64,000 bases of DNA from Escherichia coli (GTDB taxonomy: Bacteria > Pseudomonadota > Gammaproteobacteria > Enterobacterales > Enterobacteriaceae), in the NCBI RefSeq assembly GCF_029227855.1, contig NZ_CP074356.1; one strand, 5' to 3'. A program made the position numbers. Below, piece by piece: positions 52,501 through 55,500 of this stretch; position 1 is the stretch's first letter; the number at the start of each line of letters is the position of its first letter.

Positions 52501-55500
52501 GCTTTATTTTGTGAATATTTTCGGCAGACGCAACAGGGGGGGATTTGTTCCGGCAGTCTTACAATGGCTGTGTATTTTTTGTACATCAGCGCCAGATAGC
52601 TTTAAAACGCTCTGGAAGGAGCTGGAAAAAATTATAGTGAAATACAAATTGTTTTTTCTTATTTATTTCAGTGAATTAATAAAAATAAAAAGTAATGAAC
52701 AGCACAAAAAGCCCATTAACGGGTGAACAGTGGTGAACAGACGGTGAACAGTCATTACTGCGATTGTTCACCCTTTAACTTACTGTATTACTTATCTTTT
52801 TTCTTATGGTGAACAGAGGTGAACAGTAAAATATAAAAAAACAAACAGTAAGCCGGTTTTTCCTGCGACCTTTTCCTGGCTTGCCGGTCTGAGGATGAGT
52901 CTCCTGTGTCAGGGCTGGCACATCTGCAATGCGTCGTGTTGTTGTCCGGTGTACGTCACAATTTTCTTAACCTGAAGTGACGAGGAGCCGGAAAATGTCT
53001 GACAACACCATCCCTGAATATCTGCAACCCGCGCTGGCACAACTGGAAAAGGCCAGAGCCGCCCATCTTGAGAACGCCCGCCTGATGGATGAGACCGTCA
53101 CGGCCATTGAACGGGCAGAGCAGGAAAAAAATGCGCTGGCGCAGGCCGACGGAAACGACGCTGACGACTGGCGCACGGCCTTTCGTGCAGCCGGTGGTGT
53201 CCTGAGCGACGAGCTGAAACAGCGCCACATTGAGCGCGTGGCACGCCGGGAGCTGGTACAGGAATATGACAATCTGGCCGTGGTGCTGAATTTTGAACGT
53301 GAACGCCTGAAAGGGGCGTGTGACAGCACGGCCACCGCCTACCGGAAGGCACATCATCACCTGCTGAGTCTGTATGCAGAGCATGAGCTGGAACACGCCC
53401 TGAATGAAACCTGTGAGGCGCTTGTCCGGGCAATGCATCTGAGCATTCTGGTACAGGAAAATCCGCTCGCCAACACCACCGGCCATCAGGGCTACGTCGC
53501 ACCGGAAAAGGCTGTCATGCAGCAGGTGAAATCATCGCTGGAACAGAAAATAAAACAGATGCAAATCAGCCTCACCGGCGAGCCGGTTCTCCGGCTGACC
53601 GGACTGTCAGCGGCAACACTCCCGCACATGAATTATGAGGTGGCAGGCACACCGGCACAGCGCAAGGTGTGGCAGGACAAAATAGACCAGCAGGAAGCAG
53701 AGCTTAAGGCCAGAGGGCTGCTGTCATGATTTACTGCCCGTCGTGTGGACATGTTGCTCACACCCGTCGCGCACATTTCATGGACGATGGCACCAAGATA
53801 ATGATTGCACAGTGCCGGAATATTTATTGCTCTGCGACATTTGAAGCGAGTGAAAGCTTTTTCTCTGACTGTAAAGATTCAGGAATGGAATACATTTCAG
53901 GCAAACAGAGATACCGCGATTCACTGACGTCGGCCTCCGGCAGTATGAAACGCCCGAAAAGAATGCTTGTTACCGGATATTGTTGTCGGAGATGTAAAGG
54001 CCTTGCACTGTCAAGAACATCGCGGCGTCTGTCTCAGGAAGTCACCGAGCGTTTTTATGTGTGCACGGATTCGGGCTGTGGTCTGGTGTTTAAAACGCTT
54101 CAGACCATCAACCGCTTCATTGTCCGCCCGGTCACACCGGACGAACTGGCAGAACGCCTGCATGAAAAACAGGAACTGCCGCCAGTACGGTTAAAAACAC
54201 AATCATATTCGCTGCGTCTGGAATGAGGGCTGCCGGTTAACCCCGGCCGTCGCCGCACACCGTATTTTTATTCTTCAGCATGATGAGAAAGAGATAACGA
54301 TGGAAAGCACAGCCTTACAGCAGGCCTTTGACACCTGTCAGAATAACAAAGCAGCATGGCTGCAACGCAAAAATGAGCTGGCAGCGGCCGAACAGGAATA
54401 CCTGCGGCTTCTGTCAGGAGAAGGCAGAAACGTCAGTCGCCTGGACGAATTACGCAATATTATCGAAGTCAGAAAATGGCAGGTGAATCAGGCCGCCGGT
54501 CGTTATATTCGTTCGCATGAAGCCGTTCAGCACATCAGCATCCGCGACCGGCTGAATGATTTTATGCAGCAGCACGGCACAGTACTGGCGGCCGCACTGG
54601 CACCGGAGTTGATGGGCTACAGTGAACTGACGGACATTGCCCGAAACTGTGCCATACAGCGTGCCACAGATGCCCTGCGTGAAGCCCTTCTGTCCTGGCT
54701 TGCGAAGGGGGAAAAAATTAATTATTCCGCACAGGATAGCGACATTTTAACGACCATCGGATTCAGGCCTGACGCGGCTTCGGTGGATGACAGCCGTGAA
54801 AAATTCACCCCTGCGCAGAACATGATTTTTTCGCGTAAAAGTGCGCAACTGGCATCACATCAGTCTGTGTAAAACTCCCCGAAAATCCGTCCGATTTTAC
54901 TGAAAAAAGCCATGCATCGATAAGGTGCATGGCTTTGCATGCGTTTCCCTGCCTCATTTTCTGCAAACCGCGCCATTCCCGGCGCGGTCTGAGCGTGTCT
55001 GTGCAACTGCATTAAAACCGCCCTGCAAAGCGGGCGGGCGAGGCGGGGAAAGCACTGCGCGCACGAGAGTAAAACATTACTCAATTGAAAAATGTAACAT
55101 TCCTCTCTCTCTCGGTGTAATGGTGTTGGGATGAACTAACCGTTCCATTTCAAAACCAAAATCATGATAAGCAGTATTATAAAAAGAGCTTAAAATAAAT
55201 TTCACAAACGTTACCGGACATAATGGTGACGACAATGGTATCCGGCAATTTTTAAACTGACCTAGGGTTAGGTGTGCTGCTGGATGAATAACATCATTAG
55301 CGTCATCAGGGGCATAATCCACTCGTATCGGAACGGGTAAAATTGATTTTTGGACAATGTCAGCATAAAAGTTGCTTTCGTCTAAATATAACTCAGGGTC
55401 ATTCTGGAATGATTCGTAATTAGGCGCGGGGAAATAACATAGTCTTTCTTTTACAAGTTTCATTCGACGATCAAACTGAAATAAAAGATGGAGTAACCCA

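What the first reader, a model, noticed from the sequence alone, without database searches (positions are those of the whole stretch)
55037..55076. cos site lies 22 bp from the 3' end of the cargo operon
The 19-nt cohesive-end sequence ggcgaggcggggaaagcac ends about 22 bp before the partner gene's stop codon. On packaging, the cargo operon would sit at the very end of the linear genome. That fits the view of the cos-int interval as a cassette insertion point and gives a precise left boundary for the cargo (right boundary is the int stop).
Basis: partly seen in the sequence, partly recalled or inferred. Interest (0 to 1): 0.4.

Follow-up and report, generated by a model that had tools for sequence, protein, structure and literature searches.

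The report
P4 satellite cos site beside defence cassette
The 19-base sequence is the DNA-packaging cut site (cos) of a P4-like phage satellite inserted at the selC tRNA gene, and a known two-gene anti-phage cassette starts 7 bases after it; the sequence reading is right, but this arrangement was published in 2022.

Summary
Observation confirmed. GGCGAGGCGGGGAAAGCAC occurs once (55037-55055). It is identical to the cohesive ends of P2 and P4 and sits 164 nt after psu, as in P4. The element is a complete 11,623-bp P4-like satellite at selC.

Two boundary details need correcting.
- Left boundary: the packaging signal is the 55-bp P2/P4 core, 55008-55062. Across 55 different cargo classes, conservation holds through TGCGCGC (55056-55062) and falls to background at 55063. 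That is 7 nt past the 19-mer and 14 nt before the DUF2290 stop codon (55077-55079).
- Right boundary: it is not exactly the int stop. The helicase ATG overlaps the int stop by 8 nt. The last 10 int codons are specific to this element. One mapped natural swap ends about 165 nt inside int.

The cargo is the Helicase+DUF2290 anti-T7 system. Rousset et al. 2022 already described the cos-adjacent hotspot, showed the conserved and variable cos-proximal sequence, tested this system, and proposed exchange through cohesive ends.

My small addition: two natural arm exchanges have their junctions at the two cos nick sites, and 19-mer haplotypes are mosaic. This fits the published proposal. Verdict: correct, ordinary, already known.

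The parts
55037..55055 (+). 19-nt cohesive-end sequence of cos. Inferred nicks: top strand between 55036 and 55037, bottom strand between 55055 and 55056.
   Evidence: Unique exact match. Identical to the first 19 nt of P4 X51522 and to cosL/cosR of P2 AF063097.
55008..55062 (.). 55-bp cos core shared by P2-like helpers and P4-like satellites: 29 nt to the left, the 19-mer, then TGCGCGC.
   Evidence: 52/55 identical to the P2 end junction and 53/55 to P4. P2-like prophage matches cover exactly 55002/55008-55062. The '55 bp cos' figure is cited in PMC9594776 and PMC2231350.
55056..55062 (+). Near-invariant TGCGCGC, the last conserved bases before the cargo.
   Evidence: 51-55 of 55 cargo classes keep each base. 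Position +26 (55063) has a near-even base mix: A15, C15, T17, G8.
55063..55076 (.). 14-nt spacer specific to this cargo, between the cos core and the DUF2290 stop codon.
   Evidence: 9 of 51 cargo classes have 27 nt or less here.
55077..55739 (-). DUF2290 gene, the second gene of the cargo; its stop codon faces cos. RefSeq starts the CDS at 55730.
   Evidence: PADLOC DUF2290 2e-77. Pfam PF10053 7.7e-48, full length to the C-terminus. RefSeq annotation.
55732..57828 (-). SF1/UvrD-like helicase, the first gene of the cargo.
   Evidence: PADLOC 'Helicase' PDLC03002 2e-265 over residues 1-696. Pfam UvrD_C_2, UvrD-helicase and AAA_19.
57821..59011 (-). Tyrosine integrase (selC-type). Its stop overlaps the helicase ATG by 8 nt, and its last 10 codons are specific to this element.
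   Evidence: NCBIfam PRK09692 1e-83. Sequence. Family alignment.
54300..54872 (+). psu, the conserved backbone gene to the left of cos.
   Evidence: 190 aa, as in P4. RefSeq 'phage polarity suppression protein'.
54903..54939 (.). Hairpin flanked by an A-run and a T-run between psu and cos. Likely a bidirectional intrinsic terminator, and the only canonical one available to the cargo operon.
   Evidence: Sequence. Fold of the minus-strand RNA: MFE -89.6 kcal/mol, z = -5.4.
55018..55037 (-). GC-rich hairpin inside the cos core (CCGCCC-N8-GGGCGG) followed by TTTTAA on the minus strand. Terminator-like.
   Evidence: The stem is kept in P2 and in the E. coli-type lineage but not in the second P4-like lineage (sequences).
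59172..59194 (.). att core at the 3' end of tRNA-Sec (59174-59268, minus strand).
   Evidence: 23-nt identical repeat with 47549-47571, spacing 11,623 bp. tRNA calls.
47549..47571 (.). Second att core; the far end of the element.
48048..50381 (-). alpha primase-helicase (777 aa, as in P4); a backbone gene.
51832..51919 (-). C4 antisense RNA (the P4 immunity RNA).
   Evidence: Rfam RF01695, 74.9 bits.

Best explanation
This is the working cos site of an intact 11.6-kb P4-like satellite integrated at selC.

By homology with P2 and P4, the helper phage's terminase recognises the 55-bp core (55008-55062). It nicks the top strand before 55037 and the bottom strand after 55055. That turns the excised circle into a linear molecule with 19-nt 5' overhangs.

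The left end of that molecule begins with the 19-mer, then TGCGCGC, then a 14-nt spacer. Next comes the 3' end of the Helicase+DUF2290 anti-phage operon, which is read towards the end of the molecule. The operon has no room for a terminator of its own. It must therefore read through cos to the hairpins on the psu side.

The edge at 55062/55063 is the limit of the packaging signal. Everything from there to the 3' end of int is an exchangeable cassette.

Exchange mechanism (inferred, about 0.4-0.5): ends cut at cos from different elements anneal through their compatible 19-nt overhangs, and a second crossover falls in or beyond int. Rousset et al. 2022 proposed this.
For: Shown here:
- The 19-mer is unique and identical to the P2 and P4 ends.
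- The 55-bp core is 52-53/55 identical to P2 and P4.
- Spacing from psu is the same as in P4.
- The element is complete: alpha, C4 RNA, sid, delta, psu and int are present, and the att repeats are 11,623 bp apart against 11,624 bp for P4.
- The conservation edge at 55062/55063 appears both in E. coli genomes and in 55 IMG/VR cargo classes.
- The cargo is identified by PADLOC and Pfam.
- The same cargo, 99.7% identical, sits on backbones with about 30% divergent psu flanks and 81% identical int.

For the exchange mechanism:
- In the L040/L055 pair the junction lies between +18 and +26. The bottom-strand nick is at +19.
- In the L013/L053 pair the shared arm begins at base 1 of the 19-mer. The junction lies between -1 and +4, and the top-strand nick is at 0.
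- The 19-mer haplotype disagrees with its left flank in at least 8 loci. No lineage-wide switch is seen anywhere in -75..-1, only scattered single-site variants.

Literature: PMC9122126.
Against: - No cleavage or packaging data exist for this element.
- Only two swaps could be mapped, and one of them is old (91% identity).
- The mosaic 19-mers differ at only 1-3 sites, so parallel mutation or conversion by a helper phage's cos could produce some of them.
- A sharp conservation edge is expected from purifying selection alone and says nothing about mechanism.
- This int allele is always found with this cargo (25 E. coli genomes), so the right-hand junction of this particular cassette cannot be mapped.
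- The cos hairpin is not conserved in the second P4-like lineage, so a role as a terminator is doubtful.
Confidence: 0.85

Rival explanations
1. Cassettes are exchanged only by ordinary homologous recombination. One crossover falls anywhere in the conserved psu-cos backbone and the other in int. The knife-edge at 55062/55063 then only marks where purifying selection on the packaging signal stops, and cos cleavage plays no part.
For: The psu-cos region is 95-99% identical among E. coli elements, which gives ample homology. Right-hand junctions do lie within int homology. A sharp edge needs nothing more than selection. No shared sequence remnants beyond +26 are needed if each cargo carries its own junction.
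Against: In the L040/L055 exchange between lineages, the left flank is about 30% divergent right up to the 19-mer. The junction falls in the last 7 conserved bases, too few for efficient RecA recombination. Lineage switches cluster inside the 19-mer, and no lineage-wide switch is seen in the 75 nt to its left.
Confidence: 0.4
2. The cos is a relic in a defective, immobile island and is no longer cut or packaged.
For: No experimental data exist for this element. Many P4-like islands in genomes are cryptic (general knowledge).
Against: All 55 core positions are of the P2/P4 type, and the three differences from P2 lie at sites that vary among these elements. All P4 backbone genes are full length, the att repeats are intact, and the unit length is 11,623 bp. 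Copies at 99-100% identity occur in 25 E. coli genomes from cattle, dog, deer, chicken and humans.
Confidence: 0.07
3. Cassettes enter by a dedicated site-specific mechanism that targets the sequence TGCGCGC, in the manner of an integron.
For: All 55 cargo classes diverge at exactly the same base, with no shared sequence remnants.
Against: No recombinase other than Int is present. Cargo ends share no common motif: the base mix at +26 is near-even and pairwise common prefixes decline as expected by chance. TGCGCGC is equally conserved in P2-like helpers, where the hotspot lies on the other side of cos.
Confidence: 0.03

Closest known systems
cos of satellite phage P4 (X51522 / NC_001609)
   Same: Identical 19-nt end. 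53/55 identity over the core. Same position 164 nt after the psu stop. Non-essential cargo follows directly, then int.
   Different: P4 carries gop-beta-cII, with gop starting 220 nt past the core and read away from cos. Here Helicase+DUF2290 is read towards cos and stops 14 nt from the core. Int is selC-type (396 aa), not the leuX-type int of P4.
cos of helper phage P2 (AF063097), and of 186 (U32222)
   Same: Same 19-mer as P2, and 2 mismatches to 186. 52/55 identity to P2 over the 55-bp core, including TGCGCGC.
   Different: In P2 the variable cargo (old, tin) lies to the left of the core, and the conserved portal gene Q lies to the right. The satellite hotspot is therefore on the opposite side of cos.
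P4 psu-int defence hotspot (Rousset et al. 2022, Cell Host Microbe, PMC9122126)
   Same: [quoted passage not shown] Figure 1A shows the conserved and variable cos-proximal sequence. Helicase+DUF2290 was tested and blocks T7. Cohesive-end recombination plus a second homologous crossover is proposed.
   Different: Nothing essential. This report adds the exact edge (7 nt after the 19-mer, which is the end of the 55-bp core), the spacing statistics, and two junctions mapped at base-pair resolution.
Phage lambda cos as a terminase-dependent recombination hotspot (from memory; not checked with the tools)
   Same: A double-strand cut made by terminase at cos stimulates exchange nearby.
   Different: Different terminase, 12-nt ends, and concatemer substrates. 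Here the exchange is between different elements that share the same cohesive ends.

Membership tests
P2/P4-type cos site | 19-nt sequence identical to, or nearly identical to, the experimentally determined cohesive end | tested here: met
   19/19 identical to the P4 record start and to P2 cosL/cosR.
P2/P4-type cos site | Conserved 55-bp core around the 19-mer, shared by helper and satellite | tested here: met
   Window 55008-55062 is 52/55 identical to P2 and 53/55 to P4. P2-like prophage matches span exactly this block.
P2/P4-type cos site | Placed between psu and the non-essential region in a satellite of packageable unit length | tested here: met
   164 nt after the psu stop, as in P4. att-to-att spacing is 11,623 bp against 11,624 bp for P4.
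P2/P4-type cos site | Cleaved by P2-family terminase to give 19-nt 5' overhangs, and supports packaging | not testable with these tools
   Needs sequencing of particle DNA ends or a transduction assay.
P4-like satellite | Core set of alpha, immunity RNA (C4/CI), sid, delta, psu and int, in P4 order | tested here: met
   ORFs of the same lengths and order as P4. Rfam C4 at 74.9 bits. delta/ogr hit.
P4-like satellite | Integration into the 3' end of a tRNA gene, with an att duplication | tested here: met
   23-nt repeat at 47549-47571 and 59172-59194, overlapping the 3' end of tRNA-Sec.
P4 psu-int defence hotspot | Unrelated gene sets occupy the cos-int interval in otherwise similar elements | tested here: met
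   55 different downstream classes among 79 loci. Int 94-96% identical with unrelated cargo, and cargo 99.7% identical with int only 81% identical.
Rst Helicase+DUF2290 defence system | DUF2290 (PF10053) protein encoded next to an SF1/UvrD-like helicase | tested here: met
   Pfam 7.7e-48. PADLOC DUF2290 2e-77 and Helicase 2e-265. UvrD domains. The two genes overlap by 8 nt in the ORF calls (55732-55739) and abut with 1 nt between them in the RefSeq annotation.
Rst Helicase+DUF2290 defence system | Protects against phage (T7 in the published test) | not testable with these tools
   Published for a Klebsiella homologue (PMC9122126). This allele is untested.

The most novel reading that the evidence does not exclude
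Cassette turnover in P4-like satellites, and possibly between satellites and their helpers, runs through the cos cut itself. Arms of different elements anneal by their shared 19-nt overhangs. That would place junctions exactly at the top-strand or bottom-strand nick and leave mosaic 19-mers where the mismatched duplex was repaired. The two mapped exchanges and the haplotype discordances seen here would then be the first base-pair-level footprint of the mechanism that Rousset et al. only proposed.
Probability: 0.4. Interest if true: 0.4.

Novelty: already known. Interest (0 to 1): 0.15.

Why it matters
The finding shows that sequence alone can place a satellite's packaging site and the edge of its exchangeable defence cassette to the base. 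That is useful for delimiting cargo automatically: take the cos core end +1 as the left anchor and the int 3' end as the right anchor. The biology is already published: a cos-adjacent defence hotspot in P4-like satellites, carrying Helicase+DUF2290. The only forward-looking point is that junction positions at the two nick sites give a cheap, testable footprint for exchange mediated by cos ends.

Tried and rejected
1. Mapping the int-side boundary of this cassette by megablast of 57500-58500 against E. coli genomes. The int allele (at least 99% identical) occurs in about 25 genomes, always with the same cargo. All other selC integrases are only about 76% identical, so no junction can be read.

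2. Looking for the same cargo in other backbones with the DUF2290 protein in IMG/VR. Only the same element came back.

3. Promoter scan for a cargo promoter inside int. Nine sites were found against 14 expected by chance, so it is uninformative.

4. The cos-core hairpin as a conserved terminator. It is terminator-like on the minus strand, but the stem is broken in the second P4-like lineage (sequences). It was therefore not adopted as a general function.

5. Literature on which DNA end of P2/P4 is packaged or injected first. Nothing usable was found in the library, so no claim is made about the order in which the cargo enters the cell.

6. Two paper searches failed on term length.

7. The idea that int plus cargo always move as one module. 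This was rejected as a general rule: there are pairs with near-identical cargo and 81-85% int, and pairs with 94-96% int and unrelated cargo. The L013/L053 arm, however, does include int.

Full report
**1. Observation**

The 19-mer GGCGAGGCGGGGAAAGCAC sits at 55037-55055 on the + strand. It is the only match in the 64-kb window even with three mismatches allowed; 0.01 matches are expected by chance.

It is followed by:
- TGCGCGC (55056-55062);
- a 14-nt spacer ACGAGAGTAAAACA (55063-55076);
- TTA (55077-55079), the complement of the TAA stop of a minus-strand ORF.

The gap from the 19-mer to the stop codon is 21 nt.

**2. Identity of the site**

- The P4 genome record X51522 begins with the identical 19 nt. 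Its last 157 nt align to window 54880-55036 at 96.8%, so the record's ends meet exactly at 55036/55037.
- P2 (AF063097) annotates the same 19 nt as cosL and cosR. Phage 186 differs at two positions.
- Joining the P2 ends and aligning shows one shared block: 29 nt to the left (TGCATTAAAACCGCCC...GCGGGCG), the 19-mer, and TGCGCGC. That is 55 bp, window 55008-55062. It is 52/55 identical to P2 and 53/55 to P4.
- This matches the '55-bp cos' attributed to Ziermann and Calendar 1990 in PMC9594776 and PMC2231350.
- Matches from P2-like prophages in the phage and E. coli collections span just this block, 55002/55008-55062.

**3. The element**

The site lies in a complete P4-like satellite. In order, the element holds:
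- alpha (48048-50381, 777 aa);
- ORF106- and ORF151-sized genes;
- the C4 immunity RNA (51832-51919; Rfam 74.9 bits);
- sid, delta and psu (54300-54872);
- cos;
- two cargo genes;
- int (57821-59011);
- tRNA-Sec (59174-59268).

A 23-nt att core is repeated at 47549-47571 and 59172-59194. The spacing is 11,623 bp, against 11,624 bp for P4. The window is 100% identical over 3.3 kb to E. coli CFS3292, NZ_CP026935.2.

**4. The cargo**

- The 220-aa protein is a full-length DUF2290: Pfam PF10053 at 7.7e-48 and PADLOC at 2e-77.
- The 698-aa protein is an SF1/UvrD-like helicase that matches the PADLOC 'Helicase' model at 2e-265 over its whole length.
- This is the 'Helicase + DUF2290' system. Rousset et al. 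2022 took it from the P4 hotspot and found it inhibits T7 (PMC9122126). DefenseFinder lists it as 'Rst Helicase+DUF2290'.
- Its mechanism was not explored in the papers I read.

**5. Where the conserved/variable boundary lies**

*E. coli genomes.* I ran megablast of psu through cos plus 78 nt of cargo against 5,426 complete E. coli genomes.
- 2,254 genomes hold a match, and 1,039 of them hold most of the query.
- In the sampled rows, almost all alignments end at query 762-764, a few at 768, which is window 55061-55067. Most end at 55062/55063.
- A second query gave the same end points. Only 25 genomes continue into this cargo.

*IMG/VR loci.* I fetched 80 loci encoding Psu relatives and anchored 79 sequences on the 19-mer without gaps. 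These 79 are the 77 loci with enough flank, plus the window and P4. I grouped them by their downstream sequence into 55 classes.
- The fraction of classes sharing the majority base is 0.93-1.00 from offset +19 to +25. It is 0.31 at +26 and stays at background afterwards.
- The base mix at +26 is near-even: A15, C15, T17, G8.
- 75% of class pairs differ at the very first base past the core, and longer shared prefixes decline as expected by chance. There is no shared remnant sequence.

The left boundary of the cargo is therefore 55063. That is 7 nt after the 19-mer, at the end of the 55-bp core, and 14 nt before the stop codon.

**6. How unusual is the tight spacing?**

- Across 51 classes, the distance from the core edge to the nearest ORF of at least 100 aa ranges from -1 to 525 nt, with a median of 172.
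- Nine classes have 27 nt or less. In all nine the ORF's stop faces cos.
- Cargo read away from cos always leaves at least 78 nt.
- The window is therefore at the tight end of the range but is not unique.

Such operons have no room for a terminator. On the minus strand, the next terminator-like elements are:
- the GC hairpin inside the core (55037-55018, followed by TTTTAA);
- a strong hairpin flanked by an A-run and a T-run just after psu (about 54903-54939).

The whole psu-to-cargo spacer is unusually structured: MFE -89.6 kcal/mol, z = -5.4. The core hairpin is not maintained in the second P4-like lineage (sequences). I treat its terminator role as unproven.

**7. The int side**

- The helicase ATG (57828) overlaps the int stop (57821-57823) by 8 nt, and the helicase's GGAG ribosome-binding site lies inside int.
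- In the int family closest to this one (82-89% aa identity), homology ends at ...YSDFL. The window's last 10 codons (MNLSTGVQND) are unique, and relatives stop 1-10 codons after DFL.
- The P4-type int family shows the same pattern: conservation to a TP(Y/F)DFA(K/R) motif, then a variable short tail.
- This int allele (at least 99% identical) occurs in about 25 E. coli genomes, always with this cargo. Its own junction therefore cannot be mapped.
- Other pairs show that cargo and int move separately. Cargo 99.7% identical is found with int 81% identical (L040/L043 against L055/L056). Cargo 99.9% is found with int 85% (L061/L073 against L072). Int 94-96% identical is found with unrelated cargo (L052 against L020; L075 against L072).
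- In L040/L055 the near-identity runs about 165 nt into the 3' end of int before dropping.

'Right boundary = int stop' is therefore a fair approximation (within tens to about 200 nt) but is not exact.

**8. Mechanism of exchange**

[quoted passage not shown] Their Figure 1A shows the conserved and variable cos-proximal sequence. They speculated that cohesive ends made by terminase or present after injection are the recombination substrate, with a second homologous event completing the swap. The 2026 preprint on P2/P4 defence turnover does not, in the passages I searched, give junction positions.

My data add three points.

(a) *L040 against L055.*
- The psu-side flank is about 30% divergent right up to -1.
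- The 19-mers differ at offsets 4, 13 and 18.
- From +19 onward the two loci are 99.7% identical for about 3.1 kb.
- The left junction therefore lies between +18 and +26. The bottom-strand nick is at +19.

(b) *L013 against L053.*
- L013 has an E. coli-type backbone and L053 a second-lineage backbone.
- L013 shares with L053 the whole arm from base 1 of the 19-mer through cargo and int: 3,563 nt at 91%.
- The L013 left flank is E. coli-type through -1.
- The junction therefore lies between -1 and +4. The top-strand nick is at 0.

(c) *Haplotype discordance.*
- At diagnostic sites that separate the two lineages, no locus switches lineage as a block anywhere in -75..-1. Only scattered single-site variants occur there.
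- The 19-mer haplotype disagrees with its flank in L011, L013, L030 and L048 (E. coli-type backbones) and in L060, L062, L063 and L079 (second lineage).
- Some of these 19-mers are mosaic.

This is what annealing of non-identical cohesive ends followed by segregation or mismatch repair would leave.

Caveats: only two swaps were mapped and one is old. The mosaic cases involve 1-3 sites, so mutation or conversion by a helper's cos could explain some. Ordinary homologous recombination using the last conserved bases cannot be excluded. I put the cos-end mechanism at about 0.4-0.5.

**9. Comparison with P2**

In P2 the variable genes (old, tin) lie to the left of the core and the conserved portal gene Q to the right. 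Among 117 further cos-bearing loci, the helper-type ones keep a conserved right flank directly after TGCGCGC. The satellite and helper hotspots therefore flank the same 55-bp core on opposite sides. On packaging, the satellite cargo lies at the left end and the P2 cargo at the right end.

**10. Verdict**

Two boundary refinements are needed: the left edge is 55063, not 55056, and the right edge lies within or overlapping the last codons of int rather than at its stop. The feature is a textbook cos site next to a published defence hotspot carrying a published defence system. Novelty: already known. Interest: low. The only part worth following up is the junction footprint at the nick sites.

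Noticed in passing
window 54925-55134 (+): A 69-aa GTG ORF runs straight across the cos site and overlaps the 3' end of DUF2290. RefSeq/PGAP annotates it as a hypothetical protein (WP_235147361.1) in E. coli CFS3292. Packaging would cut it in two, so it is probably a spurious call.
   Followed up: partly
window 57821-57850 (-): The helicase ATG overlaps the int stop by 8 nt (ATGATTGA), and the helicase Shine-Dalgarno GGAG lies inside int. The last 10 int codons (MNLSTGVQND) have no counterpart in related integrases. It looks as if the cassette's 5' leader has become the tail of int.
   Followed up: partly
L001 (P4 X51522) about 2607-2690, compared with L036: The reference P4 int (440 aa) appears frameshifted by a 1-nt indel relative to a 99.5% identical relative and to the family consensus, which ends ...TPYDFAK plus a few residues. 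This could be an error in the 1990 sequence or a real mutation.
   Followed up: no
loci L011, L013, L030, L048, L060, L062, L063, L079 at their 19-mers: The cohesive-end haplotype (offsets 4, 13, 18) is discordant with, or mosaic relative to, the lineage of the flank to its left. No lineage-wide switch occurs in the 75 nt upstream.
   Followed up: partly
offset +27 after the 19-mer start (window 55064): The second base after TGCGCGC is A in 35 of 55 cargo classes. P2 and 186 both have a purine at this position (G in P2, A in 186). This may be a weak extension of the packaging signal.
   Followed up: no
window 47703-47822 and 47883-48002: A 120-nt direct repeat (79% identical, 180-nt spacing) next to alpha. 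It corresponds to the two 120-bp crr repeats annotated in P4.
   Followed up: no
window 52027-52117 (-): Rfam hits to isrK (69.7 bits) and to the c4-a1b1 target (49.5 bits), upstream of the C4 RNA. This is the P4 immunity-region leader. isrK was originally described as a Salmonella island sRNA.
   Followed up: no
window 55079-55093 and 56796-56810: An exact 15-nt direct repeat, ACTCAATTGAAAAAT. One copy is at the DUF2290 stop and the other inside the helicase gene. With only two copies it is probably chance.
   Followed up: no
window 57821-59011; E. coli genomes: This selC integrase allele is rare, found in about 25 of 5,426 complete genomes. It is only about 76% identical at the nucleotide level to the integrases of the other selC islands, for example in O157:H7 strains. 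At least two integrase lineages therefore compete for selC.
   Followed up: no
L085 1011-1172 (E. coli CFS3292, just outside the att core on the alpha side): A rhuM pseudogene fragment lies between setC and the satellite. It may be a remnant of an earlier occupant of the selC site.
   Followed up: no
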